The notes beneath the pieces are model-generated. The model ran no database searches, was not told the origin of the DNA, and worked only from the letters and a program-made list of their open reading frames with translations. The translations under genes and the position numbers were made by a program. From the NCBI GenBank assembly GCA_000165345.1, contig CM000436.1, positions 672,001 through 736,000 of the forward strand: a stretch of 64,000 nt of DNA, read 5' to 3'. Shown here one piece after another: positions 37,571-53,124 of this stretch (position 1 is the first letter of the stretch; every line of letters begins with the position of its first letter).

Positions 37571-38107
37571 TCATCTTCTAAGTGAGATATCACTAACTAT
37601 AGAATCATAGGTGTTTTTATAAGTTTTGAATTCTTCTCCTAAGCTTTCAGCTACTAATTCTGTAAATTCGGCAAATAATTTATCTTTATCTTTGGAATCC
37701 TCATCCATAATAAGTGCCAAAGCTTCCGTTTTATTTTCAGAATGTTCAATAAACTTTATCATTTCCACTAATCTCGGGTTATTTCTTAAAAGAGATGAAA
37801 GTCTTTCGTTAGAATTCAATGCTTCTTTTTCCTTTTCAGTCAAATCGAATTGCTCTGTTTCCTCAATAGCGCTTTCTAATTTCATTTCATTGCATATTTC
37901 TTCAAAATTTTGATCTGATTGAAGTGAGTCACTTATTTGATTACTTTTAAGGCTACATTCTTCTCTTGAGTGAATCTGAAAACATTCCAACGAACAAAAT
38001 TTCCTTAAACAACACTTAAATTTATATTTTCCTATGTTAACTCCACAAATCACACAAATTTTATCATTGATAAGAGATCCTGTCTCAGATCCTTCCATTT
38101 TACTCAT
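37571..38107 (-). CDS. zf-HIT zinc-finger protein, Hit1/ZNHIT3-like, a box C/D snoRNP assembly factor family. It is 178 aa.
   Basis: The N-terminal CVICGVNIGKYKFKCCLRKFCSLECFQIHS fits the zf-HIT consensus C..C...YKCP.C...YCSL.C...H. The remainder is acidic and helical. Confidence 0.55.
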   Translation of the reverse strand: MSKMEGSETGSLINDKICVICGVNIGKYKFKCCLRKFCSLECFQIHSREECSLKSNQISDSLQSDQNFEEICNEMKLESAIEETEQFDLTEKEKEALNSNERLSSLLRNNPRLVEMIKFIEHSENKTEALALIMDEDSKDKDKLFAEFTELVAESLGEEFKTYKNTYDSIVSDISLRR

Positions 38108-38624
38108 TTTTATTGATGTTTATTACCATTTTTTTAATTATAACTAAAATGAAAAGTATCTTACCATCTTTATTACAAATTTTTAGTTCGGCGGTTTGGA
38201 AATCAAAATATAATTTTGATTTATTGATCCTAAATGTGTTTTATTCTTAACGAAAGATGTTAGTAATAAGGAATTATCCGAACCAAAAGGAAATAAATAT
38301 AAAAGCAGTGATTTACTATCTTATCAAAAATTAAAATAATAAAATATTACAAGCCTTTTTAATATTCAGGGTATTTTTACTTGATTAGCATGTAATTTGC
38401 ATGCAAACTAATTAGATTTTAATGAAATTAAATTATGATTTTAGAAATAAAACAAGCAAAAAAATAAATTAAAACTTTAAGATTTTAACTTATTCGTATT
38501 TTATTTGAAAAATAAAAATGTTTTGAAGGCGCTGTAATATAATTCAGTTAAAATTAAAACTAAATGAATTTGTAAATAGGTTAATCAAAGAGATAAGATA
38601 TGATTTTGGAGATTGCTCATAAAT

Positions 38625-40376
38625 ATGGGTGTTATAAAAAGAACTCAGGTATTGATTGTTGGGATGGGCCCCGTAGGTATGACATTAAGCAATTTGCTTA
38701 ATTTATATAAAGTCGACAATATTATTGTTGACAAATTGACACAATTTTCGCCTATTCCAAAAGCCCACTACATTTCAAATCGCTCAATGGAGATATTTAG
38801 ATTCTGTAACAACTTAGATCAAGAAATATATAGGCTTCAACAACCTTTAGAATTTTGGAGAAGAATAACTTATCTAACTTATTTTAATAACTGCAAATTT
38901 GGTATTTTAGGAACTAAAGATGAATTCAGTAATTATAAGACAATTAATGGTTACTACTTAGATTTGGATAGCCAATCAGGAGTGGCAAATTATGATCAAA
39001 GCAAACTAAATAATTTATTGTACAAAAATTTGAAACAGTGTAAATATTCGCAGATAATGCTTGGAACATCTTGGAAAGGATATGAATTTGTTTCTAAAAG
39101 TGGAAAAGAAAAGGTAATTTCAAAGTTAGAGAAATCAAATTCAAATTTGGAATTTACTATAGAGAGCGATTTTTTAGTGGGAGCGGATGGAGCAAAGAGC
39201 CAGGTAAGGAAAGCTTTAAATAAAAATTTTAAAGGGCATGAATCTCTTCAAAAACTTCTAAATATTAATTTTATCTCAAAAGATTTGGCAAAAGTTTGTC
39301 TGGAACTCAAGCAAGAAATTATTGATGAGTGTAATAATATTAAATTAGTTCCCACCACAAGTATGTTATACTTTATTCTAAATCCAAGTTTAATAGGCGT
39401 AATGGTACTTCACGATATTAGTCAAGGCAACTTCGTGATCCATATTCCTTTAGTTGGTTCAAGCTCCGAGAAATTTGATTTAGATTTTTTTAAGCATATT
39501 TTCCCAAGTTTAATTAGCCAAGTATGCAAGAAAAACATTAATTTAGAGGTAAAATCTATTGAAACATGGAATATGTCAGCTCAAGTACTTGATTCGTTTG
39601 TTGATGAAAAAACAAATCGAATAGTTTTAATAGGAGATTCTGCTCATAGACTTCCCCCATCTGGAGGATTTGGGATGAATTTAGGAATTCAAGATTCCCT
39701 TAACTTAGCATGGAGATTAGCATTTGTATTAAAAAACAAATACGAAGAAGATATTAAAAAACAATTGAATGAGTTTAACATGGAGAGAATCCAACATGCG
39801 CAATATGCCTGTAATAACTCTATTCGGAATTTTTATAGGTCCCTATTTATTCCTAAAGCTATCGGATTGGACTGGAAAATAATATCTAGTATGCAGAAGT
39901 TAATATCTAATGCCGATAAATATATTCCTAATAAAATTTTAGAAGAGAAACCAGTCATGGATTACATTTATAAGTTAGGAATGTTTAGATTTTCAAAAAT
40001 ACTAAGGAATGAAAATAAAATGGAAAAGATAAAGATGCTTATTCAGGTTAGTTTAGTACTCCAGCTATATTAATATAAAACACTTTTTTAGGGATATATT
40101 AATTCAAGGGAAAATTCTTTATCTATCAACTTCAAAGGTCTTGATCTTGCATATGCATATAACTTTAATGCAGGAAATACAAAAGCATCTTTTGTGGCTC
40201 CAAAATCGCCGTTTAATTATTCCCCAAATACTTTACTAGGAATGAGAATCCCTCATGAATATGTTTATTTTCAAAGCCTAGATAAAATATTCAGAATCTC
40301 AACAGTAGACATTCCAATTGTATTTTCAGAAAGAGAGCCAAAGAATGTAATACTGATGTTTAGTGAAAAAAGGTAA
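38625..40376 (+). CDS. PheA/TfdB-type FAD-dependent aromatic-ring monooxygenase (FAD_binding_3 family), about 572 aa. It has two exons (38625..40046 and 40092..40376) separated by a 45-nt intron.
   Basis: N-terminal Rossmann motif VLIVGMGPVGMTLSNLL. Flavin signature GDSAHRLPPSGGFGMNLGIQDSLNLAWRLA matches GDAAH..P..GQG.N.G..DA.NLAWKLA. A CAG|GTTAGT donor lies at 40047 and a ttttttAG acceptor ends at 40091. The 45-nt intron keeps the frame. Exon 2 encodes the conserved C-terminal region APKSPFNYSPNTLLGMRIPHEYVYF, matching AP..P.Y.P....G.R.PH.WL of phenol hydroxylases. Confidence 0.7.
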
Positions 40377-40708: not shown

Positions 40709-42316
40709 CTAAGCTTCAACATTCTTAGGAGGCATTTTTTTTAGCAAACTTAATATTTCATTACCAAGTGTGAGTGATTTTTGAAGCGCAATATTAAGAT
40801 CTCCTTTACTATTAGTTTCCATCCAACCAGTTTTAAAAATAGGACAGGGAAAACAATTATTTTCAAATGAATAATCTTTATTTCCATTAAAAATATAATC
40901 ATATTTTGGTTTGAATCCCAATGATGTGATCAATAATTGGCAAGGTAAATAATATTTCTCCTTCTCATTTAACTTTGTTTTATCAGTAATTGGTTTAGAA
41001 TCACGAATATTTCTCGCTAATTCTATTCCTTTGATAAACGGGATTGATTTTTTTTTCACATTATTCTCTGGAATATTGACTTCTTCAGTTTTAATATTTA
41101 CAGTAGAGAAGAGGTTTTTAAAATGTATGTTTATTGTTTTATCATTATGGAATATGTTATCATTATTGGCTATGTATTCTTGGTGATTATTAACCATTTC
41201 CTGAAATATAGACTTCATTTTCAAAAATCTTCTTTTTATTTCTGGTCCGCTTCTTTCTAATTCGAATAAGCTAGTTCGGTCCTGTGAAAGCTCAAAATCT
41301 TCTTGAGACATCATTACTCTGATATTCATTCCATTAGTAGAATTGTATTTTGATTTCCTAGACTTATCAATAAATTCCTTTAATAATGGATATTTAAAGG
41401 AATTTTGAATCCAACCTCTCCGTCCAATAATAAATATGTTTTTGAACAAAGGTCGATAGATATCGGAGTTTGAATATTTAGATGATGTGTCAATTAAATT
41501 TAAATAATCAGGATTCAAATATTTGTTTTTTGAAAGTTGTTCATGGGTATAGAAAGATAAAAGTCTAGTAATATCCAATGAAACATTGCCATTTCCAATG
41601 ATAACCGCATTCCTCTCACTGGAGTTTAATATATAATTTCTAAGTATATCAGAACCATATCCATATTTAAAGTCTTCATTTTCGTTTTTAAATGGGACGC
41701 TAATTTCAGTAGAAGATAAAGGACTCTTATATTCAAAAAATTGATTGTTTTTTTTTTTAAGGTAATTCAACTCTATATCCATATCAATTCTCTCATTATC
41801 AATAAGTTTATTATTGATCGAATTAGAGTGTTCATTTTTTGTTGGATATAGCATTTTTTTAAACATTGGGTGGCTATTATAATAAAACACCCAATCTCTA
41901 GAAGAAAATACTCCTCCTATAATTTTATTCTGTAATTCATTATTCATATATTTCACTGGAAGAGTATGGAAACTTTGTAATCCACCAACTGCTAAAACCA
42001 CTACATCGTATTTCCTCTTTAATTCTTCTAATTTAACATCATATCCCAAAGTCACATTTCCATAGAATTTAATATCATCAGAATATTTTTTAAAAAGAGA
42101 GTTATCAATACTAGAAATCGATTTTTTTAGATCATGTCTATCTGGTGCAATTCCATATCTGAGTAGCCCAAATGGTTTATCTAAGGAATCTAATAAATCT
42201 ATTTTGATTGCAATGTTTTCCTTTTTTGATCTTGCCAGCAAATATTTGGCCAAGTAACAACCTGATGGGCCTGCACCAACAATACATAACTTATATATTG
42301 GCTTGTAAGGTCTCAT
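40709..42316 (-). CDS. ARH1: Adrenodoxin reductase-type (mitochondrial/mitosomal) ferredoxin-NADP+ reductase.
   Basis: KLCIVGAGPSGCYLAKYLL, PFGLLRYGIAPDRHDLK, FYGNVTLGYDVKLEELKRKYDVVVLAVGG, GVFSSRDWVFYYNSHP, AVIIGNGNVSLDITRLL, IFIIGRRG and GWMETNSKGDLNIALQKS all align to the adrenodoxin reductase family. The first ATG is at 42316; the track start at 42406 is TTG. Confidence 0.85.
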   Translation of the reverse strand: MRPYKPIYKLCIVGAGPSGCYLAKYLLARSKKENIAIKIDLLDSLDKPFGLLRYGIAPDRHDLKKSISSIDNSLFKKYSDDIKFYGNVTLGYDVKLEELKRKYDVVVLAVGGLQSFHTLPVKYMNNELQNKIIGGVFSSRDWVFYYNSHPMFKKMLYPTKNEHSNSINNKLIDNERIDMDIELNYLKKKNNQFFEYKSPLSSTEISVPFKNENEDFKYGYGSDILRNYILNSSERNAVIIGNGNVSLDITRLLSFYTHEQLSKNKYLNPDYLNLIDTSSKYSNSDIYRPLFKNIFIIGRRGWIQNSFKYPLLKEFIDKSRKSKYNSTNGMNIRVMMSQEDFELSQDRTSLFELERSGPEIKRRFLKMKSIFQEMVNNHQEYIANNDNIFHNDKTINIHFKNLFSTVNIKTEEVNIPENNVKKKSIPFIKGIELARNIRDSKPITDKTKLNEKEKYYLPCQLLITSLGFKPKYDYIFNGNKDYSFENNCFPCPIFKTGWMETNSKGDLNIALQKSLTLGNEILSLLKKMPPKNVEA

Positions 42317-42534
42317 TTTTATAAATGATCCAAAAACAAATTCAAATTCATTTCCTAGATTTAATATAATTATTACAACTACTTCACTAATCAAATCAAA
42401 AAGCAAACATATATTTCTGAAAGATTAACAAAATTAATTAGTGATGAAGTTGTCGATATATTTTGAATTTTTATGTTTAGAATGAAGTTAGAAAATTTGT
42501 TAGATTGGAAAACTGCATATTCCCCACATACCGC

Positions 42535-45500
42535 CTAAATTTCAACATTTTTTAGTGTTTCTTTTAAAAATTCAGAGTATGAAATGACACTAAATCTAAA
42601 ATTTGGGTAATCTTTTAGAACTTCCATTGCATCAATAGCAGAATTTTCTCCACCGCAAAGAGCTATGCAACTTGAAGGCATCATATTTGTGGTATTAGGT
42701 AAGAAATGTTTAAGGTACTTGATTGAAACTCTTTTTATATCTTCAACTGTAACTTCAGATATTTTCTTTATAATAAAACTGTCAAACTTTGGAGAAATAC
42801 CAACATTAAGATCAAAATTTAGCTGTTTTGCCCAAGAATTGAATTTTTTGTGCTTTGAAATAAATTTATAAGCAGCGATCCTTTTTGCTTCATCAAGATC
42901 TAGACTGTTATAAAAGCTTTCATAGTAATTAGGTAATTTGTTAGTTTTCTTAATCTCTTCATAAACCTCATTTTCATCCATTGATAACTCTCTGAAAATT
43001 TCCCAAGTCTTGATTAAAGACTGACCAATTGATGTTGATTCATACACACAATTTGAAAACTGACCAGTAGTCATACAAAGATCCAAACTTCCACTATATG
43101 CTAAACCACTGCCCCTAATTGAATCAAAGAGTAGTGAGCAAGGATCCCAAAGATAGTTTGAAAGTACGAGAAGAGCTGGAACATCTGGATTGAAAAAATG
43201 AGATCCTTTTGGGAAGAAAGTACCAAATGTATTTAAATTGATTGACTGAATAAAGCACGCTGTATTTGAGCTTGGAACCTTTAGGTAAATTGAATAGCCA
43301 TATTTTTCAGGTATTCTAAATTTTTGTGAGCTGTTTGAATTAAAGTCTATACCTAGATCCAATGGGAGTGCTCTTGAAAGTATTTCCCATGGAAGTAAAT
43401 TTATGTTGGGGGTGTTCTGTATTTGGTTATTAATTAAGTATTGGCTTTTGTAGTTTTTATTGATAGAAAAATATTTAAATAAATTTATTTTGTTGGCCTC
43501 CTCTTTTCCAATAACAAATAACGAAAACTTTGTGTTACTAGCTGGAATAACTTCTGATTTCCCAAGAGCGAATGGTCTAATAAGAACTGAATGAAGCCTT
43601 TCTAGTTCAACCAAGTAATTTTTTGGTTCTTTTATCAATCTTTTGGAAATATGATCAAAGTTTGGAATATTTGAAATATTAAAAATTGATTGATCGCAGA
43701 AACAAAGAGAGTTCGAAACAGAAGTAATTAAACCTTCTTCACTCAATTTTAGTTCGCTGATTGTTCCTTTGATAGTTCTGGCTATTGTAGAAATTCTTTC
43801 AGCATTCAATCTCATGCCACAAATTCCACTCATAATTAATATTGAGGAAAACTCAGTATATTCTATTGGGGTTGTCCAATTTACTTTAATTTGGTTTGGA
43901 ATTGTATTAGAATCCAAAATCCATCCATCGCTGAATTCTGCATAGTAATCGATACAAAAAGTATTTAAAAGTTTATCAAAATCATCGAAGTTAATTAGTT
44001 CTCCGTCTGACCAATTAACATCAGGTAGGAAGACTTTTGACTCTCTCAATTTTGAATATTTTTCAGAAATTTGTGGGCCAATTAAATTTATAACTTTAAC
44101 AGATGTTTGAAATAATAATTCTACTAGAAGGGATGAAAGTAGTTTTTCAGTGTTAGATAGATTTTCGTTCAAATTAATCCTCAGTTGTGCGTGTACAAAC
44201 TCAGTATTTGAGTTTTCTAAAAAAAAGTACAAACAATTATCTATTGTTTGTGATTCTAAGTCATGGTCCATATTTAACTTTTTAAATATTATGTCGCTCC
44301 CTTCATTAATCTCTGCTAGTTTGGCTTCTGAGTAATTCACATTTGTGGTAATATTTGCTTTATTAAGACCAATACAGTTTAAATCGAAAGATATATTAAA
44401 ATTATTAAGTATTTCGAGACTAATAGCACGTTTTTTATTATTTATTATGGACTCCTCCAACTTCGCCTTACAAATCTGAAAAAAACGTTTACCTTTCTTA
44501 CTTATTCTTTCTTTTCTTTCTTCCTTGAATCTCTTTGTCATTTCTTTTGATAATTTTTTGCTTGGAACAAATTCAAGTATGTTCATTTTTTGTAAACAAA
44601 AGGCTTTGTTAAAAAGCGTTTTCCAATATTCTAATCCCTCTGAAAGTAATTTTTTGAGAATAAAATGCAGATTACAGTATTCGGTGAGATCATCCATATT
44701 ATTAATTCCATAGTTAATAAAACCAGATAGCTGGTTAAATACTGTATCAATTGTCTTATTTTCCAATGAAACAAGGTGTCCGTAGTATAGACCTTCTATC
44801 TTACATTTTAAGTCATTAATATCAAAACTTCGTTCACCATTGTGGAATTCAGAAATTATTCTCTTAAATAAATCCACTATCTTATTAATCTTTGTTGTTT
44901 CTACCCCATGAAGTAAAATTTGGTGGTACCTATTTTTTTCGCAAACATTTGACATGTCTACATCTGAGCAGTAAGATTTACCTTCTACGAGTTCTTTCAT
45001 CAATGGGGAGTCGTTTCCAATACATAAATAATGCAATAATACGGTAATTGATAACATTTCTTTAAAGTTCGAAAATGCTCCAAATCTCCATGAAAAACTA
45101 ATGGTACTTAAATCCTCTTCTTCGCTAGGGAATGGGATCTCTAGATGCCATGGAAAAGATTGTTCTTTTAAATTTTCATTAAAACAAAGCTTTTTATTTA
45201 ATGGTCTTTGGTTTATTGGGGAATCTGAAATTCGAATTTTCTTACAGGTTTTATGATCATTAACAAGTTCTGCTTCGCTAATAAATTTCCCAATTGTTCC
45301 AAAAATATTATTTATATTAATACTTTCATTCCCATGTATGAAGATTAACATATTATCCAAACTATAAAAGTTTGCATGAAATTCCTTTAGTTCATCTAAT
45401 GAAAGTTTTTGAAGTCCAGTTGTTCGACCAGTGCATGAAAATACACTAGATTGGCTTCCATCATATTTTTCAGTGATTTCATCGTAAAGCTCCCATGTAG

Positions 45501-46140
45501 AGTGAAGCTTGATTTTTTTTTTCTCAGTAGGGCTCTCACATAAAGTATGAAACTTAGAAAGAGTTGTGACAACCTCATCATAGTTTCTCTCGAAAGAAGA
45601 AACTTCTGAATAAACTACTCCATGGTACTCTGCATTTTCATTTAAATGTACGATCTCTGTAAGAAATGATTCTTCCGACAAAATTGGATGAAATAAATGA
45701 TCTAGCCAAACTTCCAACATTCGTAAAAGGCTCCATTCTGTTGTACATTCAAATTCAAATGTAGTCGAATCATCTATAGTGAAAGCATTTGTGTATGGAC
45801 AACACAGTCTGTTAGAGATCTTATCAATGCTATCATTATATGGAAAGCGTTTGCTACCATTAAAAATGACATGCTCTAGCGCATGCGGTATCCCTTTATT
45901 GTTGTTTGGCACAGTTGTAAAACTTAATTTACAGTGAGTAAAAGATGGCCCACAAATAGTAAAAGTCTTCATGAATGCTACAATGACTCCCTTTTGGTGC
46001 TGGTAGAGTTCCAATATTCCAACATTTGAGACTTTGATCGATTTAATAAAAGAGAAGTTATATTTTGTTTCATCTCGAATAAATTCCTCTTTATTTAGGT
46101 CTCCAAGTTTAACTTTAAATAAATTAGCCACTTCATTCAT
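42535..46140 (-). CDS. M16C-family zinc metallopeptidase, an insulinase-like presequence protease (PreP)/falcilysin homolog. It is 1201 aa.
   Basis: Inverted zinc motif in IPHALEHVIFNGSKRFPYNDSIDKISNRL...TNAFTIDDSTTFEF. This matches PreP/falcilysin [42 protein letters not shown]. The length is typical for M16C. It starts with ATG at 46140. Confidence 0.8.
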   Translation of the reverse strand: MNEVANLFKVKLGDLNKEEFIRDETKYNFSFIKSIKVSNVGILELYQHQKGVIVAFMKTFTICGPSFTHCKLSFTTVPNNNKGIPHALEHVIFNGSKRFPYNDSIDKISNRLCCPYTNAFTIDDSTTFEFECTTEWSLLRMLEVWLDHLFHPILSEESFLTEIVHLNENAEYHGVVYSEVSSFERNYDEVVTTLSKFHTLCESPTEKKKIKLHSTWELYDEITEKYDGSQSSVFSCTGRTTGLQKLSLDELKEFHANFYSLDNMLIFIHGNESININNIFGTIGKFISEAELVNDHKTCKKIRISDSPINQRPLNKKLCFNENLKEQSFPWHLEIPFPSEEEDLSTISFSWRFGAFSNFKEMLSITVLLHYLCIGNDSPLMKELVEGKSYCSDVDMSNVCEKNRYHQILLHGVETTKINKIVDLFKRIISEFHNGERSFDINDLKCKIEGLYYGHLVSLENKTIDTVFNQLSGFINYGINNMDDLTEYCNLHFILKKLLSEGLEYWKTLFNKAFCLQKMNILEFVPSKKLSKEMTKRFKEERKERISKKGKRFFQICKAKLEESIINNKKRAISLEILNNFNISFDLNCIGLNKANITTNVNYSEAKLAEINEGSDIIFKKLNMDHDLESQTIDNCLYFFLENSNTEFVHAQLRINLNENLSNTEKLLSSLLVELLFQTSVKVINLIGPQISEKYSKLRESKVFLPDVNWSDGELINFDDFDKLLNTFCIDYYAEFSDGWILDSNTIPNQIKVNWTTPIEYTEFSSILIMSGICGMRLNAERISTIARTIKGTISELKLSEEGLITSVSNSLCFCDQSIFNISNIPNFDHISKRLIKEPKNYLVELERLHSVLIRPFALGKSEVIPASNTKFSLFVIGKEEANKINLFKYFSINKNYKSQYLINNQIQNTPNINLLPWEILSRALPLDLGIDFNSNSSQKFRIPEKYGYSIYLKVPSSNTACFIQSINLNTFGTFFPKGSHFFNPDVPALLVLSNYLWDPCSLLFDSIRGSGLAYSGSLDLCMTTGQFSNCVYESTSIGQSLIKTWEIFRELSMDENEVYEEIKKTNKLPNYYESFYNSLDLDEAKRIAAYKFISKHKKFNSWAKQLNFDLNVGISPKFDSFIIKKISEVTVEDIKRVSIKYLKHFLPNTTNMMPSSCIALCGGENSAIDAMEVLKDYPNFRFSVISYSEFLKETLKNVEI

Positions 46141-46221
46141 CGATTATTATTAAACTACAAGAATTTAGGAATAAACTCAAGCAACAAAAATAGTAATTTT
46201 CAAGTCTGTCAAATTGAAATG

Positions 46222-46337
46222 TGGCGCCTATTAGTTTGGATAAAATACATATTAACGAGTAGATAACAGTGCTGTGAGTAAATAGAGAATTAAATAAACA
46301 TATTTAAAAGTTTCAAACGATGTAGAAAAGGCGCACC
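46222..46337. promoter_or_regulatory. Bidirectional promoter region between the M16C peptidase and SET1. It contains TGGCGCC (46222-46228) and AGGCGCACC (46329-46337).
   Basis: It lies in the 249-bp divergent intergenic region. GC-rich E2F-like cores sit in an otherwise AT-rich spacer. Confidence 0.35.
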
Positions 46338-46389
46338 TGTTTATCACACAGTATTTGCAGCATAACCAAAGAATACCGTCGTAGAATAA

Positions 46390-49300
46390 ATGACGGTAGA
46401 AAGTGCTAGGAATTCAAAGAGAAAGGGTGCCAATACTAATTTTAGAGACGGGGAACTTGTTGGAGAGAATAAAAAGAGAAGATGCTCTCATTCCTCATCA
46501 AGCAAGAATTCTAATTTGCAATCTAAAAGAAGGGTTCAGTCAAGATCAAGGAAAAATGAAAGCTGCATGAATGTTTTTGTTCAAGCCGATGACAATAATG
46601 AAACTGAATTAGTTAAACTGAATACAATAGAGATAAAAAATTTAAAGGATGGGTTTAAATATGTAGGTTATAGATGTAGAGTTGCTGTATCCAGACAAAA
46701 AACGAAGGAATTAAAAAACAACTCTCCTAATGCATTCAACTGGGTGGAGGGAATAATTAAATTTTGGGATCCAAAATTTAAGTTATTCTTTATACACTTT
46801 TTGCTTTCACCTTCAATAAATTCATTCAGAAACATTAACAATACTCCCAAACATGAATGGAAATACTTGGCTACTCAAAATAATTCTCCCCCAGCAAATA
46901 CTGATATAAGAAATCTTGTACTTTCACCTTTTGCAATTGATAGAGGCTGGTTTGATCCAAATCCAATAACTATGAAATTATATGGGAGTCTTCCTTTAAA
47001 AGATATCTCTTCTATTTCATTTCAAGACAAAGCGGAACTAACTAAATCTGAAAAATTTTCCAGCGAAGTCTGCACAAGATGTAAATTACCAATAGTTGAG
47101 GAAGAAGTAATTTACTCATGTGAGCTTTGTTCCAGGAAGTTTCATCAAAATTGTGTAAATATGAGCAATACAAGTATACAGGATCTAAAAGATTCAGATA
47201 TTACTACATTGAGACAATACAACTCCCCAAATAACTTGGAATTGTTATTAATTGCAAATGAGCATAACCAATATATCCGTGAAAGAAAAAGACTTTGGAA
47301 GCGTAATTATAATGTATCTCACGATTCTGAAGGAAATTTAAGTTTATATAACAAGTGTTTTAATGATGGGCAACTTCCATATGATCTCGTTGACGTAGAA
47401 GAACTGGAGAGAGCTCTGCCAAATGAAGTAAAAAAAATCATTTTGGAAAATTATAATATGTCTCATACTGGTATAAGAAAATTACTCTCCAAATTGCCCG
47501 ATAAAATGGGTTCTATAATTGGTGATCATCAAGTTAAGCTTTTGTGCAGGAATTACAGATATAACAAAAGAAATAAGTCAATTATGCTCACACAGTCATA
47601 TAAGGAAGAAGACTATTCAAGTACAATCACATCATTGGAATCGACACCTTCAAAAATTTGTTCGAGAAACGAGCCTAGTGTTCAAAAAAGTGATTTAATT
47701 GATGATATTGATTCAAAATCGGTTTTTAATAAGGGCGAATATAATTCCGAATCATCTTTTATTGAAACTATGGAATTGGAAAAAACTGATTTCACAAAAG
47801 ATGAAAATAATCCTATTCAAATATCTATAGACGATGCAAAAGACGAGCAGCTAAAAACAAATGAGTACAAATATAGATGTAAGGACTGTATACCCTGTAT
47901 TTATTGTAAAGAGCCACTATTGCGCATTCCGGTGATTCTTAAACCAAACGAATTACCAAATAGATCGTTGGTATATTCACAAATTCCTACAAAGTTGGAG
48001 GAATTTGTTGTTTGTGGAACTTGTGGGATTTGTTACCATGGTAGCTGCGGAAATTCTTTTGTTCCACCATTGTTATTTGGTGGAAATAATTTCAATTGTT
48101 CCAATTGTTGTAAGTGTATACACTGCGGATATAGAGATAATGGTTTCATGGATTATGCTTCTTGGGACTCAACCTTTTCGAGCTGTATTAGGTGCTGTAA
48201 AGGTTTTGAAAGGGGGCAATTCTGTTCAATTTGCAGAAAAATATGGACATCTTCATGGGAAGGAGAATGGCTCCAATGCGACATTTGCAAGTTTTGGGTC
48301 CACTATGATTGCGATAAGGATTTAAATGAGCCAATAGAATTCTATTCAAATGTTAAAAACCTTTATAACTGTCCAGCATGTAGAAGCAATGATAACTCAG
48401 TTAAATATCAAAGGATTCTGGATCATTTTATTTGTTTGGACAAAAACAAAGACTTTGCCTCAACTCCTCTTCCTTCATACCAAAATTATTGGAAAGTGGT
48501 AAAAATTCCAATGGATATTATGACGGTCACAAACAATTTAGAAAGTAAAAAGTATGATTCAGATGAATATTCATTTATTAGGGATATATTCAGAATAATA
48601 TACAATGCCCAAATATCTCATATGCCTAACCATAGGATTTTCAAACTTGCAGCAAATATTTTAAAGAAAATAACCCATTTATTTAAGCTCTTATTTGGGG
48701 AAAATTTATTGTTGAGATTTTTCAACGTTATAAAAAAAGAGGAATCTTCGATGTCAATTTTGGTAGAACAAATAGATACTAATGATCTTAGAAGTAAAAT
48801 AGGCGATGAAATATTTGAAAATACAAATTCAAATATAAATGTTAAGCTTTCCCAAGATTATAGAGCTAACAATTTATCATGTGAGAACAACGTTGAAAAT
48901 GAGCTCGCTATTGATCTAGCCGAAGCTGTGTTAAATCATACAAAGCTGAACTTAGATATTAGCGGTAACTTGAGAAATACAATATCCAGAAAGCAATTTT
49001 CATGCTTAAAGGGCGATAATAATCTGAATTCAGTATTTGGAAAGCTCTTTGCTGAATTTAAGAAGTGCACAATTTGCCAACAAAAAAGTGATGAACTCCT
49101 TCATTGCTTAAAATGCGGAGTAAATATCCACTCTAAGTGTTCAGAAGTAGTAAATGGTTCATTTGTTTGCAACTCATGTACAGCTTGTCATATTTGTTCT
49201 GAGCTAATGGCTGATTCAAGTATACCAGTTATTTCATGTTATACATGCAATAAAAGAGTACATTATACATGTATTTGGCAGGATTATGAGAGGTTTATAG

Positions 49301-52300
49301 AGCAATCAAAATATTCAGACATACCTTCAAGGAATAAGAAAAGAAATGAAGGTGGGTATAATTTTGCTAATTTATCCGGAAATTTGAAAGATAATAGGGA
49401 TTATATCTGTCTTTGGAAAATTATTTCTTCCACTGCATCTCCAAACAAATCTAAAGTTTTGATTAATTCTCCGCTTACAGCAGTTTTTGGCAAAGGGTAT
49501 TATCAATATTTGATCAATGAGATTTATTTATGCACAGAATGCTTTGAAGCAAAGAGATATTTACATTCGAATCTGTTTATGCAGAAGTACGCAAATGAAT
49601 ACAACAGATTCTTATTTACTAAGGTGGTAGAGTTCCAAAAGTTGATTGACGAAATCATTACAAAAGATTTTTCAGAAATATATTTTAGTGAGGGAACAAA
49701 AGAAAGAGAAATAAATAAAATTTTAGAGACAATTTCAAGGGTAGAGTTGAAGCCTTTTGATATGTCTTTCAAAGAAGAAAATATTATCATTTGTAATTTA
49801 TGCTCTGATCGCTTTTATTGCAAAGATTTTGAGGATCTAGTTGAAATTGCGAATGATAACGCTATTTGTTCGGTTTCCCTCAATTACATTTGTAATAACT
49901 GTAATAAATTGTCAAATAAGATTTCAAAAAATCAATACTATAAGAAAAATGTTGAATTACCACAAGCAAACATTATTACAATGGCACAAGAAAGCTTGAA
50001 AGAACCAACATATCCAAACAGTAATTTTCCTTTGATTTTAAATACATTGATTTCTGCATCACAATTCAGAGTAACTTTATCTAAGGACGTTGATCTACTT
50101 CTAAGAGTCATTTTGAGCCCTTTTCTTGATCAATCAATCTCAGTTATAAAGAAGTATGAATTGTACTTAGAAATTGATAAAGAAAATATTAGAAGCGACA
50201 TAATTAATAAGTATTTCAATTCTGTATATTTTGCAAGAATAATAAAACAGACTTTACAATCTTCTTTATTACAATGGTTTCTGTTTTATATCCACCAAAA
50301 TGGCTTATTTGATTTTTCCAACTTGAGAAAAGACTATCTTCAACACTTTTACAAACAAAATAATGTAAGCTTGGATGATTTGATTCAAAACAACACTATA
50401 TCCGTAATTATTGCCTCTATTGAAAAGATGGTCCTTTCTAACGACTTGAATAGTAAAACTAACCAAAATAAATTGATTAAAAATAATCTGTACGATCCAG
50501 ATTACTTGTCTTTTCTAGGATTATATTCAAATTTATTATTTCCAGCAAGTAATTTTCAGATGTTTGGATTAGGGAACTTAAACTTGATGAATTACCAAGC
50601 TATAATTGATACAAAAATGTACCTTGAAATTAATGATTCTTTTAAAGAATATGTATTGAATTACCAAAACTCGCAAAGAAATTCTATTTTAGTTACTAAA
50701 CATAAAGCTTTGAAGGATGAAATAACGCAAGGATTAACTCTAATAAAAGACCAAATAGAAATGGACAAACAAGAATTTAAATTACCTAAATTATCATTTT
50801 TTGTATTAATTTATAGCTTCATTCTAAGCAAATTAAGCAAAATAGATGATAATTTCAGCGGTGTCGATTCTAATAGATGTAAATATTGTGGAAGGAGCCA
50901 AAACTTATTACTTGGGGATCAGTTGATTAATGTTCTTGAAAATGTTGCTCTACACAAAGAATGCGTATTATGGTCTCTCCCATTTGTTTTAGAACCAATT
51001 TTAAATAATTTAGATATGGGTTATGAGTCAAAGTTTGAAACAAATAAAAAAAAAAGTGAGATTTATTCACCTAAGTACCCCACTTTCGGAAGTATTTCTT
51101 GGCCAATTCTCAGGAAACCAATTCACGTAGATATCAATGACATTATAATAACATTGAACGATTTAAACGCTCTTAAATGTTTCTTCTGTGGGAATTCGGG
51201 TGCTACCATCAAATGTTCTGGAAATGATAAATGTTTTAAATATTATCATATTGATTGTATTTTTAAAGGTTTTCAAAAGAATAATTTTGAATATTATTCC
51301 AGTTACCAATTTAATAATATATTTCGAGAGGAAAGCAATAGTAATTTAGATTTGAGTATTAGTACAGATAAGGAATCGATGATTCATATTAGATTAAAAT
51401 ATAGAAGAGTTTGGTGTAATGAGTGCTGGGGAATCTACAAAACAATAATTGAGCCAGAAACTAGTTTTTCAGAGGGATTAACTGGCGGAATCTTAAATAC
51501 ATTTGTTAGTATGTTATTGGTCGATATTAAAATTGTAAATAATTTTGAATTTCAAGAGAGATTACAAATAGTTAATAAAAACACAATTATTGATTCGTTT
51601 ATAGAAAAGATAATTACTGTTTTTAGTACAAAGAAAAAATATAACTCAAAGATAAAGACCCTAATTCAGAAATTAAAAAGAATCCGTGATTCTATTCAAT
51701 ATAGCGATTTAAAATTTGAATCAAATATAGTCAATAATTCAATTATTTTATTGGACCCAGGTGTAATTATTGAAAATAAGGATTTCGTAGATGGGAAAGA
51801 AATAATGATTTTCCTTGTTAACTATAGGGCACTTCGAATTTGGAAGAGTTGCAGAATAATAAATAATATATTTGAAATCGACAATGCTCTTTCTTTATAT
51901 CTCTGTTCAACATTTGAGATTAATGGAAGCGTCAGATTTCAAATAGATTGGATCCCAACTACCCATTTCGAAATGAAGAAAGTGAATGAATGGTTGATTA
52001 CAAATGATTTTAAAGATGATGAATTCTGGAGTAAAATTTACATTAATGGAATTTGCCATAAATTATTCGGCATTCCATTGCTTAGAGATATAAATTTGAA
52101 AAATTTATTTAACAGTTTTTCTGAATTACTATGCTCAGAATCTCTTAAAGATGTAAGCCGTAGTACATTTGAATGCATTATTTATCCAAATTATTTATCA
52201 AGTAATTCTTACTTGGACTACTCTAACACAAAAAAAATGCAATTCGTAAGTGATTGTGATGCAAGATCACAAATATTCTTTGGGTTTAGAGAGGAATTCA

Positions 52301-53124
52301 TTTACAGTTTGGTCAAACGTAAAATAGACAGATTCAGTATAAAAAAGCTCATTTCTGTATTTTACTATAGGAAGATATTCGCTGATATAATGCATCCTGA
52401 GTTATGGACTAGTCACAGGCAATATCCTTACCCTGACAAGTTGTCAAAGTATAAAGGATTCGAATTTGAATACTGTAAACTTGGAAGAAATGAAATGAAA
52501 GGAGGCAGAATAAACGAGGATTTATTTACTATCATACATGCAGGCAATAATAAAGATCCTGATAACGTGGAATTGATGAATTCTATTCACCAAAGTTTCC
52601 AAGAGTCATCTAAAAGAAATAAGATTCTGCTGGAGGATATGGGTCCCACAAAGTTATATAGATATTTAGACTCACTTCCTTATGATAAACGCTTAAATAT
52701 CAAGAAATCAAGTATTCATGGATTTGGGCTCTTTGCAAAAGAACTGATTAAAACAGGAGAGCCAATTATTGAATATGTTGGCGAGCTAATACGTAATAGC
52801 GTTGCAGATAAAAGAGAAAGTCTTTATAAGTCAAACGGAAATCGGGATGGGTCATGCTATATGTTTAGGCTAGATGAATCCAGCGTAATAGATGCGACTA
52901 ATATTGGAAATCATGCCAGATTTATGAATCATTGCTGTGATCCAAATTCAATTTGTAAAGTTATAAGTATTGATTCGCAAAACAAGCATATTGTAATATT
53001 CTCCAAAAAAACAATTAATAAGGATGAAGAGATTACTTATGACTATCAGTTCAATGTTGAGGAGGCTTCAGAGAAAATTATATGCCATTGCGGTGCAAGC
53101 AATTGCCTTGGAAGGATGAACTAA
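46390..53124 (+). CDS. SET1: SET1/MLL-family histone H3K4 methyltransferase, 2244 aa. It has multiple PHD/ePHD fingers, a bromodomain-like module, and a C-terminal SET plus post-SET domain.
   Basis: The C-terminus GFGLFAKELIKTGEPIIEYVGELIRNSVADKRESLYK...YMFRLDESSVIDATNIGNHARFMNHCCDPNSICKVI...ITYDYQF...ICHCGASNCLGRMN aligns to the SET1/MLL SET domain, including the terminal CHCGA.NC...MN. The PHD-type Cys/His clusters are CTRCKLP...CELCSRKFHQNC, CTICQQKSDELLHCLKCGVNIHSKC and CFFCGNSGATIKCSGNDKCFKYYHIDC. The bromodomain-like segment is YWKVVKIPMDIMTVTNNLESKKYDSDEYSFIRDIFRIIYNAQ. Confidence 0.85.
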   Translation: MTVESARNSKRKGANTNFRDGELVGENKKRRCSHSSSSKNSNLQSKRRVQSRSRKNESCMNVFVQADDNNETELVKLNTIEIKNLKDGFKYVGYRCRVAVSRQKTKELKNNSPNAFNWVEGIIKFWDPKFKLFFIHFLLSPSINSFRNINNTPKHEWKYLATQNNSPPANTDIRNLVLSPFAIDRGWFDPNPITMKLYGSLPLKDISSISFQDKAELTKSEKFSSEVCTRCKLPIVEEEVIYSCELCSRKFHQNCVNMSNTSIQDLKDSDITTLRQYNSPNNLELLLIANEHNQYIRERKRLWKRNYNVSHDSEGNLSLYNKCFNDGQLPYDLVDVEELERALPNEVKKIILENYNMSHTGIRKLLSKLPDKMGSIIGDHQVKLLCRNYRYNKRNKSIMLTQSYKEEDYSSTITSLESTPSKICSRNEPSVQKSDLIDDIDSKSVFNKGEYNSESSFIETMELEKTDFTKDENNPIQISIDDAKDEQLKTNEYKYRCKDCIPCIYCKEPLLRIPVILKPNELPNRSLVYSQIPTKLEEFVVCGTCGICYHGSCGNSFVPPLLFGGNNFNCSNCCKCIHCGYRDNGFMDYASWDSTFSSCIRCCKGFERGQFCSICRKIWTSSWEGEWLQCDICKFWVHYDCDKDLNEPIEFYSNVKNLYNCPACRSNDNSVKYQRILDHFICLDKNKDFASTPLPSYQNYWKVVKIPMDIMTVTNNLESKKYDSDEYSFIRDIFRIIYNAQISHMPNHRIFKLAANILKKITHLFKLLFGENLLLRFFNVIKKEESSMSILVEQIDTNDLRSKIGDEIFENTNSNINVKLSQDYRANNLSCENNVENELAIDLAEAVLNHTKLNLDISGNLRNTISRKQFSCLKGDNNLNSVFGKLFAEFKKCTICQQKSDELLHCLKCGVNIHSKCSEVVNGSFVCNSCTACHICSELMADSSIPVISCYTCNKRVHYTCIWQDYERFIEQSKYSDIPSRNKKRNEGGYNFANLSGNLKDNRDYICLWKIISSTASPNKSKVLINSPLTAVFGKGYYQYLINEIYLCTECFEAKRYLHSNLFMQKYANEYNRFLFTKVVEFQKLIDEIITKDFSEIYFSEGTKEREINKILETISRVELKPFDMSFKEENIIICNLCSDRFYCKDFEDLVEIANDNAICSVSLNYICNNCNKLSNKISKNQYYKKNVELPQANIITMAQESLKEPTYPNSNFPLILNTLISASQFRVTLSKDVDLLLRVILSPFLDQSISVIKKYELYLEIDKENIRSDIINKYFNSVYFARIIKQTLQSSLLQWFLFYIHQNGLFDFSNLRKDYLQHFYKQNNVSLDDLIQNNTISVIIASIEKMVLSNDLNSKTNQNKLIKNNLYDPDYLSFLGLYSNLLFPASNFQMFGLGNLNLMNYQAIIDTKMYLEINDSFKEYVLNYQNSQRNSILVTKHKALKDEITQGLTLIKDQIEMDKQEFKLPKLSFFVLIYSFILSKLSKIDDNFSGVDSNRCKYCGRSQNLLLGDQLINVLENVALHKECVLWSLPFVLEPILNNLDMGYESKFETNKKKSEIYSPKYPTFGSISWPILRKPIHVDINDIIITLNDLNALKCFFCGNSGATIKCSGNDKCFKYYHIDCIFKGFQKNNFEYYSSYQFNNIFREESNSNLDLSISTDKESMIHIRLKYRRVWCNECWGIYKTIIEPETSFSEGLTGGILNTFVSMLLVDIKIVNNFEFQERLQIVNKNTIIDSFIEKIITVFSTKKKYNSKIKTLIQKLKRIRDSIQYSDLKFESNIVNNSIILLDPGVIIENKDFVDGKEIMIFLVNYRALRIWKSCRIINNIFEIDNALSLYLCSTFEINGSVRFQIDWIPTTHFEMKKVNEWLITNDFKDDEFWSKIYINGICHKLFGIPLLRDINLKNLFNSFSELLCSESLKDVSRSTFECIIYPNYLSSNSYLDYSNTKKMQFVSDCDARSQIFFGFREEFIYSLVKRKIDRFSIKKLISVFYYRKIFADIMHPELWTSHRQYPYPDKLSKYKGFEFEYCKLGRNEMKGGRINEDLFTIIHAGNNKDPDNVELMNSIHQSFQESSKRNKILLEDMGPTKLYRYLDSLPYDKRLNIKKSSIHGFGLFAKELIKTGEPIIEYVGELIRNSVADKRESLYKSNGNRDGSCYMFRLDESSVIDATNIGNHARFMNHCCDPNSICKVISIDSQNKHIVIFSKKTINKDEEITYDYQFNVEEASEKIICHCGASNCLGRMN

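What the first reader, a model, noticed from the sequence alone, without database searches (positions are those of the whole stretch)
40709..46140. Tandem adrenodoxin reductase and PreP/falcilysin-like M16C protease, a reduced-mitochondrion module
A mitochondrial-type ferredoxin-NADP+ reductase of the ARH1 family and a 1201-aa M16C presequence-protease-like peptidase with HALEH lie head-to-tail on the minus strand, only about 220 bp apart. If this is a Cryptosporidium-like organism with a mitosome, both products are candidate components of the relict organelle: Fe-S cluster assembly electron supply and presequence peptide clearance. The FNR model starting at the first ATG has no obvious presequence (MRPYKPIYKLCIVGAGPSG). 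This raises the question of how it is targeted, or whether an upstream exon exists (the TTG-extended ORF adds 30 aa).
Basis: partly seen in the sequence, partly recalled or inferred. Interest (0 to 1): 0.5.

Follow-up and report, generated by a model that had tools for sequence, protein, structure and literature searches.

The report
Two adjacent, unrelated Cryptosporidium housekeeping genes
Two neighbouring, already annotated Cryptosporidium parvum genes are real, but they are not a mitosome module: one is the known Arh1-type ferredoxin reductase that has lost its import presequence, and the other is an Sdd3/C05D11.1-type peptidase, probably cytosolic, not a presequence protease.

Summary
Both ORFs lie at the stated coordinates, head-to-tail and 218 bp apart, in Cryptosporidium parvum chromosome 8, and both are already annotated.

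The FNR is a genuine adrenodoxin-reductase/Arh1/FprA-type enzyme. It is already listed as the ISC-pathway Arh1, and published predictors already score it as lacking a presequence. No upstream exon exists: the open upstream frame is unique to C. parvum. Gastric Cryptosporidium species keep a roughly 23-residue longer, basic N-terminus that intestinal species have lost.

The peptidase has an M16C clamshell fold with intact HALEH, Glu179 and an R1009/Y1015 pair. It is not a PreP/falcilysin orthologue. It belongs to the paralogous Sdd3/C05D11.1 clade (412 vs 112 bits; PreP-type references excluded in 100/100 bootstraps). Its nearest named relative is a Plasmodium 'insulinase, putative', and Plasmodium also has falcilysin. 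It has no targeting extension or signal peptide, even in species where Arh1 keeps one, so it is most likely cytosolic.

The adjacency carries no functional signal. The gap equals the local median, the whole block is syntenic across the genus, and Toxoplasma lacks the pairing.

Verdict: ordinary, already-known genes. The 'module' reading is not supported.

The parts
40709..42316 (-). Arh1/adrenodoxin-reductase-type NADPH:ferredoxin reductase gene (535 aa; stop codon included). FAD motif GAGPSG at aa 14, NADP motif GNGNVS at aa 241, GRRG at aa 298, TGW at aa 496. A Cryptosporidium-specific disordered insert spans about aa 159-215.
   Evidence: PMC6282951 Table S1 lists the C. hominis orthologue XP_666594 as FDXR/Arh1.
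42317..42534 (-). 218 bp intergenic spacer between the M16 stop codon and the FNR start codon. It contains the non-coding 'TTG extension' (42317-42406) and a splice-like GTATGT...TTTCAG pair that is not conserved.
   Evidence: There is no in-frame ATG. The in-frame open stretch is 36 codons in C. parvum but 1-17 codons in six other species.
42535..46140 (-). Sdd3/C05D11.1-clade M16C-fold zinc metallopeptidase gene (1201 aa; stop codon included). Proposed Zn ligands are H86, H90 and E179, with catalytic E89 and a D4 R1009/Y1015 pair. A hinge helix spans about aa 528-570. Low-confidence inserts lie at aa 293-323, 599-780 and 849-940.

Best explanation
These are two independent, already annotated C. 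parvum chromosome 8 genes that happen to be neighbours in a compact, highly syntenic genome.

Gene 1 is the orthologue of yeast Arh1 / mammalian adrenodoxin reductase. By inference from its family, it moves electrons from NADPH via FAD to the mitochondrial-type [2Fe-2S] ferredoxin (Yah1 homologue), which feeds Fe-S cluster assembly on IscS/IscU in the mitosome. In intestinal Cryptosporidium the protein starts within one residue of where mature bovine AdR starts, so the cleavable presequence retained by gastric species has been lost. If it enters the mitosome, import must rely on an uncleaved or internal signal. One speculative candidate is the acid-free, basic first 32 residues that overlap the Rossmann beta-alpha-beta unit.

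Gene 2 is a single-chain, four-domain clamshell zinc oligopeptidase of the Sdd3 (yeast) / C05D11.1 (C. elegans) clade. This clade is an ancient eukaryotic paralogue of PreP/falcilysin within the M16C-fold group. Its catalytic residues are intact, so it is probably an active peptidase that encloses and cleaves unstructured oligopeptides. It lacks any N-terminal extension or signal peptide, so it most likely acts in the cytosol rather than clearing presequences in the mitosome.

Shown here: gene structures, family and clade assignment, motif conservation, N-terminal comparisons, synteny. Inferred: catalytic activity, substrates, localisation.
For: Identity and prior annotation.

FNR family: PDB phmmer hits AdR at 2e-22 and FprA at 5e-22. 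The fold search gives 1cjc at 9e-26 with TMt 0.66, against 1e-15 for the next class. Cofactor motifs are intact. The protein is listed as Arh1 in PMC6282951 Table S1.

FNR N-terminus: query residue 9 aligns to residue 8 of mature AdR. There are 8-10 residues before beta1 in intestinal species and 31 basic, acid-free residues in gastric species. Published MitoFates/Predotar/MitoProt/TargetP scores are 0/0/0.19/0.01 for C. parvum and 0.77-0.92 for C. andersoni and C. muris. No upstream exon exists.

Peptidase fold: full-length Foldseek matches to hPreP, AtPreP and falcilysin at about 1e-30 with TMt 0.65-0.72, against IDE at 1e-19 with TMt about 0.55. H86, E89, H90, E179, R1009 and Y1015 are invariant against PreP-type proteins.

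Peptidase clade: the genus profile hits more than 280 proteins at E<1e-30, the best 150 listed at about 160-300 bits, against 86 bits for hPreP and 22 bits for falcilysin. The top hits are named C05D11.1 or are Babesia, Cardiosporidium and Chromera proteins. The C05D11.1-like HMM scores 412 bits against 112 bits for the PreP-type HMM. The reference sets were validated against the PDB. In the NJ tree the PreP-type set is excluded in 100/100 bootstraps, and Cryptosporidium sits next to a Plasmodium ovale 'insulinase, putative' and other alveolates. K. lactis Sdd3p is in the same family.

No targeting signal: HxxEH sits at a median position of 62 in 120 family members, at 64 in C. muris and at 86 in C. 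parvum, with 6 acidic residues in the first 40. There is no hydrophobic N-terminus.

No module.
Against: No experimental localisation of either protein could be retrieved. The C. parvum hyperLOPIT paper is not held, so the cytosolic placement of the peptidase and the mitosomal placement of the FNR remain inferences.

Many proven mitosomal proteins in reduced organelles lack recognisable presequences. Frataxin in C. parvum is localised to the mitosome despite poor predictions (PMC6282951). Absence of a presequence therefore does not exclude import.

The literature counts only one M16C among the 22 M16 genes of C. parvum (PMC8175991). If the mitosome needs a presequence-degrading enzyme, this protein would be the only M16C-fold candidate.

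The tree is a distance tree on very divergent sequences, and the internal placement of Cryptosporidium within the clade has weak support (57-69%).
Confidence: 0.8

Rival explanations
1. One reading: both proteins are mitosomal. The M16C-fold enzyme acts as the organelle's presequence-clearing peptidase (a functional PreP) and the FNR supplies electrons for Fe-S assembly, so the pair forms a relict-organelle module.
For: The peptidase has the M16C clamshell fold with an intact active site. The literature counts only one M16C in C. parvum (PMC8175991), so no other PreP-like candidate is known. Several C. parvum ISC proteins (IscS, IscU, Yah1, Mge1) carry predicted presequences whose cleaved peptides would need clearing. 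The adjacency is conserved throughout the genus.
Against: The protein is orthologous to the Sdd3/C05D11.1 clade, not to PreP/falcilysin. It has no N-terminal extension in any Cryptosporidium species, including C. muris (HxxEH at 64, family median 62), where the neighbouring Arh1 keeps a strong presequence. Its N-terminus is acidic. The only functional report retrieved for this family concerns C. albicans Sdd3, described as a putative metalloprotease that binds the Rho1 GAP Bem2 (PMC11796410); its membership of this clade rests on its name. The conserved adjacency is part of a larger syntenic block that includes an unrelated SET-domain gene and a flavin monooxygenase. The gap is the median size, and Toxoplasma lacks the pairing.
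Confidence: 0.1
2. In intestinal Cryptosporidium the FNR has been relocated to the cytosol after losing its presequence. It would then no longer work with the mitosomal ferredoxin in situ.
For: The protein begins at the mature N-terminus of AdR. Four predictors give near-zero scores in C. parvum, C. hominis and C. ubiquitum but 0.77-0.92 in gastric species. The loss coincides with the intestinal clade, which has the more reduced mitosome (PMC5146892 abstract).
Against: Its only known class of partner, the Yah1-type ferredoxin, is strongly predicted to be organellar in C. parvum (0.91-0.99), and ISC assembly needs this electron supply. The first 32 residues are basic with no acidic residue, which is compatible with an uncleaved signal. 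Presequence-independent import is common in mitosomes (PMC7465240 abstract). The cofactor motifs remain under constraint.
Confidence: 0.15
3. The peptidase is one of the secreted, invasion-related insulinase-like (INS, M16A) proteases of Cryptosporidium.
For: GenBank names it 'insulinase like metalloprotease'. It is presumably counted among the 22 INS/M16 genes, as the single M16C (PMC8175991); no gene identifier linking this locus to that count was retrieved.
Against: It has no signal peptide or hydrophobic N-terminus (max KD-10 of 0.89 in the first 35 aa). The fold is clearly closer to M16C than to IDE/M16A (1e-30 vs 1e-19, TMt 0.65-0.72 vs about 0.55). It has one-to-one orthologues in free-living and non-apicomplexan eukaryotes. 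The gene is not subtelomeric-like and is not expanded.
Confidence: 0.03

Closest known systems
Adrenodoxin reductase / yeast Arh1 / M. tuberculosis FprA (glutathione-reductase-fold NADPH:ferredoxin reductases)
   Same: It is the best sequence and fold match. It has the FAD GxGxxG motif, the NADP GxGxxS motif, the GRRG arginine pair and the C-terminal GW motif. It is assigned the same role as the ISC electron donor in published Cryptosporidium inventories (PMC6282951).
   Different: Intestinal species have no cleavable presequence. A disordered insert of about 57 to about 70 residues, specific to Cryptosporidium, lies after the YYNxHP motif. The C-terminal ~40 residues present in yeast, ciliate and Toxoplasma homologues are missing. 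The Pfam Pyr_redox_2 score is below the gathering threshold (23.7 vs 26.1), which reflects strong divergence.
Sdd3 (fungi) / C05D11.1 (C. elegans and arthropods) / Plasmodium 'insulinase, putative' clade of M16 peptidases
   Same: It gives the highest profile scores and the tree places the protein there. The Pfam pattern is the same: M16 plus M16_C, with weak or no M16C_assoc and no PreP_C. It shares the HxxEH, distal Glu and R/Y pair, and has no N-terminal extension.
   Different: It is about 185 residues longer than typical members (~1015 aa) because of three low-confidence inserts. It is only about 20-23% identical to non-Cryptosporidium members. The biochemical function of the clade itself is essentially uncharacterised.
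Presequence protease PreP / Cym1 / PITRM1 and falcilysin (M16C sensu stricto)
   Same: It has the same overall four-domain clamshell with a long helical hinge and the same catalytic residues, so it probably works in the same way mechanistically.
   Different: It is a paralogue, not an orthologue. The profile scores 86, 71 and 22 bits to hPreP, AtPreP and falcilysin, whereas true PreP-type proteins score 280-550 bits to each other. M16C_assoc and PreP_C are not detected. There is no presequence or transit peptide: HxxEH is at 86, against 104, 162 and 129 in hPreP, AtPreP and falcilysin (PMC12731061 table).

Membership tests
Adrenodoxin reductase / Arh1 / FprA-type FNR | N-terminal FAD-binding Rossmann motif GxGxxG | tested here: met
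   GAGPSG at aa 14-19; G14, G16 and P17 are invariant across 13 homologues, G19 nearly so.
Adrenodoxin reductase / Arh1 / FprA-type FNR | Second dinucleotide (NADP) motif and the Arg pair for the 2'-phosphate | tested here: met
   GNGNVS at 241 and GRRG at 298; G241, N242, G243, N244, R299 and R300 are invariant. Assigning the Arg pair to the 2'-phosphate rests on my knowledge of the AdR structure.
Adrenodoxin reductase / Arh1 / FprA-type FNR | Closest by sequence and by fold to AdR/FprA rather than to other flavoprotein reductases | tested here: met
   phmmer gives 1cjc 2e-22 and FprA 5e-22, with the next class at 3e-8. Foldseek gives 1cjc 9e-26 with TMt 0.66, with Nfn at 8e-16.
Adrenodoxin reductase / Arh1 / FprA-type FNR | Cleavable N-terminal mitochondrial presequence (eukaryotic members) | tested here: not met
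   Only 8 residues precede beta1, and the start aligns with mature bovine AdR. Published predictor scores are 0/0/0.19/0.01. The feature is met in C. andersoni and C. muris. It concerns localisation, not the enzyme family.
Adrenodoxin reductase / Arh1 / FprA-type FNR | NADPH-dependent reduction of a [2Fe-2S] ferredoxin | not testable with these tools
   This needs an enzyme assay with recombinant CpFNR and CpFd.
PreP / Cym1 / falcilysin (M16C sensu stricto) | Single ~100 kDa chain, four domains, long helical hinge between the halves | tested here: met
   The AF2 model has pTM 0.72 and a 43-residue helix at 528-570. It aligns over its full length to PreP and falcilysin structures. Domain 3 is poorly modelled.
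PreP / Cym1 / falcilysin (M16C sensu stricto) | HxxEH plus distal Glu, and the R/Y pair in D4 | tested here: met
   H86, E89, H90, E179, R1009 and Y1015 are invariant in the alignment with PreP-type proteins.
PreP / Cym1 / falcilysin (M16C sensu stricto) | Pfam M16C_assoc (PF08367) and PreP_C (PF22516) domains | tested here: not met
   Neither is reported at E<=0.01 for the window protein. Genuine PreP-type proteins score 172-221 and 108-163 bits.
PreP / Cym1 / falcilysin (M16C sensu stricto) | Closer to PreP/falcilysin than to any other M16 clade (orthology) | tested here: not met
   The PreP-type HMM scores 112 bits and the C05D11.1-like HMM 412 bits. PreP-type proteins are excluded in 100/100 bootstraps. 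The profile scores 86 bits to hPreP and 22 bits to falcilysin, against up to about 300 bits for C05D11.1-like proteins.
PreP / Cym1 / falcilysin (M16C sensu stricto) | N-terminal organellar targeting peptide | tested here: not met
   HxxEH is at 86 in C. parvum and 64 in C. muris. The first acidic residue is at position 3, and there are 6 D/E in the first 40 residues.
Sdd3 / C05D11.1-like M16 clade | Best profile match and phylogenetic placement within the clade | tested here: met
   Named members include C05D11.1-like proteins of arthropods, K. lactis Sdd3p, a Plasmodium ovale 'insulinase, putative', and Babesia, Cardiosporidium, Chromera and Digyalum proteins.
Sdd3 / C05D11.1-like M16 clade | Catalytic domain starting near the N-terminus (no targeting extension) and the M16 + M16_C-only Pfam pattern | tested here: met
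   The median HxxEH position is 62 in 120 members. The Pfam pattern is shared.
Sdd3 / C05D11.1-like M16 clade | Cytosolic localisation | not testable with these tools
   This is inferred from the absence of signals. The only support retrieved is that C. albicans Sdd3 interacts with the Rho1 GAP Bem2 (PMC11796410). Yeast YOL098C = SDD3 being cytoplasmic is from my memory only.
Secreted Cryptosporidium INS proteases (M16A) | Signal peptide and M16A (IDE-like) architecture | tested here: not met
   There is no hydrophobic N-terminus. IDE matches are ten orders of magnitude weaker than M16C matches.
Functional gene pair / 'module' | Adjacency closer than background and conserved beyond general synteny | tested here: not met
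   The gap is 218 bp against a median of 242 bp. The whole SET-M16-FNR-monooxygenase block is conserved in the genus. The Toxoplasma orthologue has Rrp44 and dynein genes as neighbours.

The most novel reading that the evidence does not exclude
The intestinal Cryptosporidium lineage lost the cleavable presequence of Arh1, while gastric species retain it. Its ferredoxin partner shows the opposite prediction pattern in the published table. This could mean that the electron-supply arm of Fe-S assembly has been rewired in the most reduced mitosomes. Either the FNR enters by a presequence-independent, uncleaved N-terminal or internal signal, or it has moved to the cytosol. In parallel, the genus would lack any true PreP, leaving open how cleaved presequences are cleared, with the Sdd3-type enzyme as a possible recruit.
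Probability: 0.15. Interest if true: 0.5.

Novelty: already known. Interest (0 to 1): 0.15.

Why it matters
It matters mainly as a correction. Labelling this peptidase PreP- or falcilysin-like would wrongly add a presequence protease to the Cryptosporidium mitosome inventory. The evidence instead places it in the uncharacterised Sdd3/C05D11.1 clade, and suggests, via the literature count of a single M16C, that the genus may have no true PreP.

The FNR is a legitimate ISC component whose missing presequence is already tabulated. The clean contrast between gastric and intestinal species offers a small, tractable natural experiment on how import signals decay as mitochondria reduce to mitosomes. 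Nothing here is surprising to a specialist.

Tried and rejected
1. Upstream exon for the FNR. I noticed a GTATGT donor directly after the M16 stop codon and a TTTCAG acceptor that would splice in frame into the 36-codon upstream ORF. I rejected this because in six other species an in-frame stop lies 1-17 codons upstream, none has an in-frame ATG, and the splice-like motifs are not conserved together.

2. FNR paired functionally with the downstream FAD_binding_3 monooxygenase as an Arh1-dependent Coq6. Rejected: it is of the phenol / 2-hydroxybiphenyl monooxygenase type (184 bits), and the COQ6 model scores 51 bits against a cutoff of 489.

3. A third indexed homologue search with a mixed profile returned only the same candidates and gave no named relatives.

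5. The hyperLOPIT source paper (Guerin et al. 2023) is not held, and other papers citing it did not mention these genes. I never recovered the cgd8 gene identifiers.

6. Literature on the Plasmodium orthologue was uninformative.

7. A first NJ tree was corrupted by saturated distances and was redone with a distance cap and bootstraps.
Full report
OBSERVATION. An ORF at 40709..42406(-) is 565 aa from a TTG, or 535 aa from the first ATG at 42316 (MRPYKPIYKLCIVGAGPSG...). An ORF at 42535..46140(-) is 1201 aa with HALEH at residues 86-90. The two are head-to-tail and 218 bp apart. The window is about 30% G+C and about 82% covered by long ORFs. Exact-sequence look-up shows it is Cryptosporidium parvum chromosome 8. 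The peptidase is EAK89457.1/QOY40029.1, 'insulinase like metalloprotease'. The reductase is QOY40028.1 / UniRef Q8IS94, 'putative NADPH:ferredoxin oxidoreductase'. Both genes are therefore already annotated.

THE REDUCTASE. Against the PDB, the protein best matches bovine adrenodoxin reductase (2e-22) and M. tuberculosis FprA (5e-22). The next class, Nfn/GltD-type, scores 3e-8 or worse. An AlphaFold model (pTM 0.75) best matches the same structures (E about 1e-25, TMt 0.65-0.67), with Nfn at 1e-15. The FAD motif GAGPSG, the NADP motif GNGNVS, the GRRG pair and the C-terminal TGW are present, and most of their residues are invariant across 13 homologues. It looks like a competent Arh1/AdR-type enzyme. 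Two features are specific to Cryptosporidium: a disordered insert at about aa 159-215, and loss of the C-terminal ~40 residues seen in yeast, ciliate and Toxoplasma homologues. Miller et al. 2018 list the C. hominis orthologue (XP_666594, in the same 90% cluster) as FDXR/Arh1 of the ISC pathway.

ITS N-TERMINUS. Residue 9 of the C. parvum protein aligns with residue 8 of mature bovine AdR, so there is no room for a cleavable presequence. Across the genus, intestinal species have 8-10 residues before strand beta1, and the bovis/ryanae group has 15. Gastric species (C. andersoni, C. serpentis) have 31 residues with 5-6 basic and no acidic residues, MIRFPLGYARQLHSRRIGLSLNCLHLKRGYF. Published predictions agree. 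MitoFates/Predotar/MitoProt/TargetP give 0/0/0.19/0.01 for C. parvum Arh1, low values for C. hominis and C. ubiquitum, and 0.77-0.92 for C. andersoni and C. muris. It is already tabulated in the literature, and it is a derived trait of the intestinal clade.

THE UPSTREAM-EXON QUESTION. The old 571-aa GenBank model simply runs back to the preceding stop codon and has no Met. There is no in-frame ATG upstream, and a TTG start is a bacterial-code artefact of ORF listing. I noticed a splice-like GTATGT immediately after the M16 stop codon and a TTTCAG that would join in frame. Comparison with other species rules this out. The in-frame open stretch upstream of the conserved ATG is 36 codons in C. 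parvum. It is 3 codons in chipmunk genotype I, 1 in a ubiquitum-like assembly, 3 in C. canis, 17 in C. felis, 9 in C. muris and 4 in C. andersoni. None has an in-frame ATG, and the two splice-like motifs are not conserved together. The ATG at 42316 is the start.

THE PEPTIDASE: FOLD. Pfam finds Peptidase_M16 and Peptidase_M16_C only. An AlphaFold model (pTM 0.72; the N-terminal half and D4 are confident, D3 is poor) aligns over its full length with human and Arabidopsis PreP and with falcilysin (E about 1e-30, TMt 0.65-0.72). It aligns clearly less well with insulin-degrading enzyme (1e-19, TMt about 0.55). A 43-residue helix at 528-570 sits where the long M16C hinge is expected. H86, E89, H90, E179, R1009 and Y1015 are invariant in an alignment with PreP-type proteins. 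These correspond to the HxxEH motif, the distal Glu and the R/Y pair that define an active M16 chamber (features as summarised in PMC12731061). At the level of fold and mechanism, 'M16C-like' is right.

THE PEPTIDASE: ORTHOLOGY. The sequence signal to PreP is weak: 86, 71 and 22 bits from the genus profile to hPreP, AtPreP and falcilysin. An exhaustive profile search of 1.84 billion representatives found more than 280 proteins at E<1e-30, the best 150 listed scoring about 160-300 bits. The named ones are 'uncharacterized protein C05D11.1(-like)' from a spider, a tick and insects, along with proteins from Babesia, Cardiosporidium, Chromera, Digyalum, Anaeramoeba, Willaertia and a chytrid, a Plasmodium ovale 'insulinase, putative', and a cluster containing Kluyveromyces lactis Sdd3p. 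These proteins share the window protein's Pfam pattern. Genuine PreP-type proteins carry M16C_assoc at 172-221 bits and PreP_C at 108-163 bits. An HMM built from eight non-Cryptosporidium members of this clade scores the C. parvum protein at 412 bits, against 112 bits for a PreP-type HMM. I checked the reference sets against the PDB. The PreP-type reference scores 554, 323 and 284 bits to AtPreP, hPreP and falcilysin. The spider C05D11.1 protein scores 95, 77 and 42 bits, the same distant pattern as Cryptosporidium. In a 65-taxon NJ tree (941 columns) the PreP-type set is separated from everything else in 100/100 bootstraps. Cryptosporidium is nested eight nodes deep, next to an unnamed metagenomic protein, the Plasmodium 'insulinase' and the other alveolates, though with weak internal support of 57-69%. 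Plasmodium has falcilysin as well, so this is paralogy. The Cryptosporidium gene is the Sdd3/C05D11.1-type gene, not the PreP/falcilysin-type gene.

THE PEPTIDASE: LOCALISATION (INFERRED). In 120 full-length members of the clade the HxxEH motif sits at a median position of 62, so the catalytic domain starts at the N-terminus. It is at 64 in C. muris and at 86 in C. parvum. The extra C. parvum residues include six acidic ones, the first at position 3. By contrast the motif is at 104, 162 and 129 in hPreP, AtPreP and falcilysin (PMC12731061 table). There is no hydrophobic N-terminus or transmembrane-like segment. C. muris and C. andersoni provide a useful internal control. They keep a strong presequence on the neighbouring Arh1, yet their M16 orthologue has none. 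The only functional report I found for this family describes C. albicans Sdd3 as a putative metalloprotease that binds the Rho1 GAP Bem2 (PMC11796410); its membership of this clade rests on its name. I conclude the enzyme is most likely a cytosolic oligopeptidase, with moderate confidence and no direct localisation data.

THE 'MODULE'. The 218 bp spacer is indistinguishable from the window's median inter-ORF gap of 242 bp, and 10 of 24 gaps are as small or smaller. The M16-FNR order is conserved in C. muris, C. andersoni, chipmunk genotype I, a ubiquitum-like assembly, C. canis and C. felis. The flanking SET/PHD/bromodomain gene upstream and the FAD_binding_3 monooxygenase downstream are also conserved where the fetched flank reaches them, so this is genus-wide synteny rather than selection on a pair. 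In Toxoplasma the Arh1-type gene lies between an Rrp44/Dis3 gene and a dynein heavy chain. Nothing links the two products functionally once the peptidase is removed from the PreP family. I also tested whether the FNR might instead be paired with its downstream neighbour as an Arh1-dependent Coq6. That gene is of the phenol / 2-hydroxybiphenyl monooxygenase type, and the COQ6 model scores 51 bits against a cutoff of 489, so I rejected this.

COMPARISON WITH THE KNOWN, AND NOVELTY. The literature already counts one M16C among the 22 C. parvum M16 genes (PMC8175991). It lists the FNR as Arh1 and gives its near-zero targeting scores (PMC6282951). What this analysis adds is modest. The single 'M16C' is of the Sdd3/C05D11.1 type rather than the PreP/falcilysin type, which suggests the genus has no true PreP; I could not test this genome-wide. 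The FNR presequence loss follows the split between intestinal and gastric species, and the upstream ORF is non-coding. The finding as submitted is ordinary and already known.

LIMITS. No experimental localisation was retrievable. The hyperLOPIT paper is not held and AFDB50 was unavailable. The tree is a distance tree on highly divergent sequences. The equation of yeast YOL098C with SDD3, and its cytoplasmic location, come from memory and are supported here only by the K. lactis 'Sdd3p' label.

Noticed in passing
window 42227-42316 (-) versus L001 12142-12240 and L002 8001-8100: The FNR N-terminus differs by clade. Gastric Cryptosporidium species keep a 31-residue basic, acid-free leader before the Rossmann strand. 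Intestinal species keep only 8-10 residues, and the bovis/ryanae group 15. This matches published predictor scores (0.77-0.92 vs <=0.41).
   Followed up: yes
PMC6282951 Table S2 (not in the window): The ferredoxin partner Yah1 shows the opposite pattern to Arh1. It is strongly predicted mitochondrial in C. parvum (0.91-0.99) but near zero in C. andersoni and C. muris (0-0.18). This may reflect wrong start codons in the gastric gene models, or genuinely complementary signal loss.
   Followed up: no
window 41672-41842 (-), FNR aa ~159-215: A disordered insert specific to Cryptosporidium (pLDDT <50) lies between the YYNSHP motif and the NADP-binding GNGNVS motif. It is absent from Toxoplasma, yeast and ciliate homologues. 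The C-terminal ~40 residues of those homologues are also missing.
   Followed up: partly
window 38613-40073 (+): The convergent neighbour is a FAD_binding_3 aromatic hydroxylase of the phenol / 2-hydroxybiphenyl monooxygenase type, not Coq6. Public gene models for it range from 482 to 664 aa across assemblies, so its true exon structure and ends are unsettled.
   Followed up: partly
window 46141-46389: A 249 bp divergent spacer separates the M16 gene from a 2244-aa PHD/bromodomain/SET-domain gene (46390-53124, +). It is a probable bidirectional promoter region. The arrangement is conserved in C. muris and C. andersoni.
   Followed up: no
window 42424-42534 (-): A consensus-like splice donor GTATGT lies directly after the M16 stop codon, and a TTTCAG acceptor about 105 nt downstream would join in frame to the FNR upstream ORF. 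The pair is not conserved in other species and is probably chance in AT-rich DNA.
   Followed up: yes
window 42535-46140 (-), M16 aa 293-323, 599-780, 849-940: Three low-confidence segments make the Cryptosporidium peptidase about 185 aa longer than typical Sdd3/C05D11.1-clade members (~1015 aa). Domain 3 is the most divergent part.
   Followed up: no
window 37571-38107 (-): A small 178-aa ORF has a weak zf-HIT match (20.9 bits, below the gathering score of 24.7). A 201-aa gene occupies the equivalent position in C. muris and C. andersoni.
   Followed up: no
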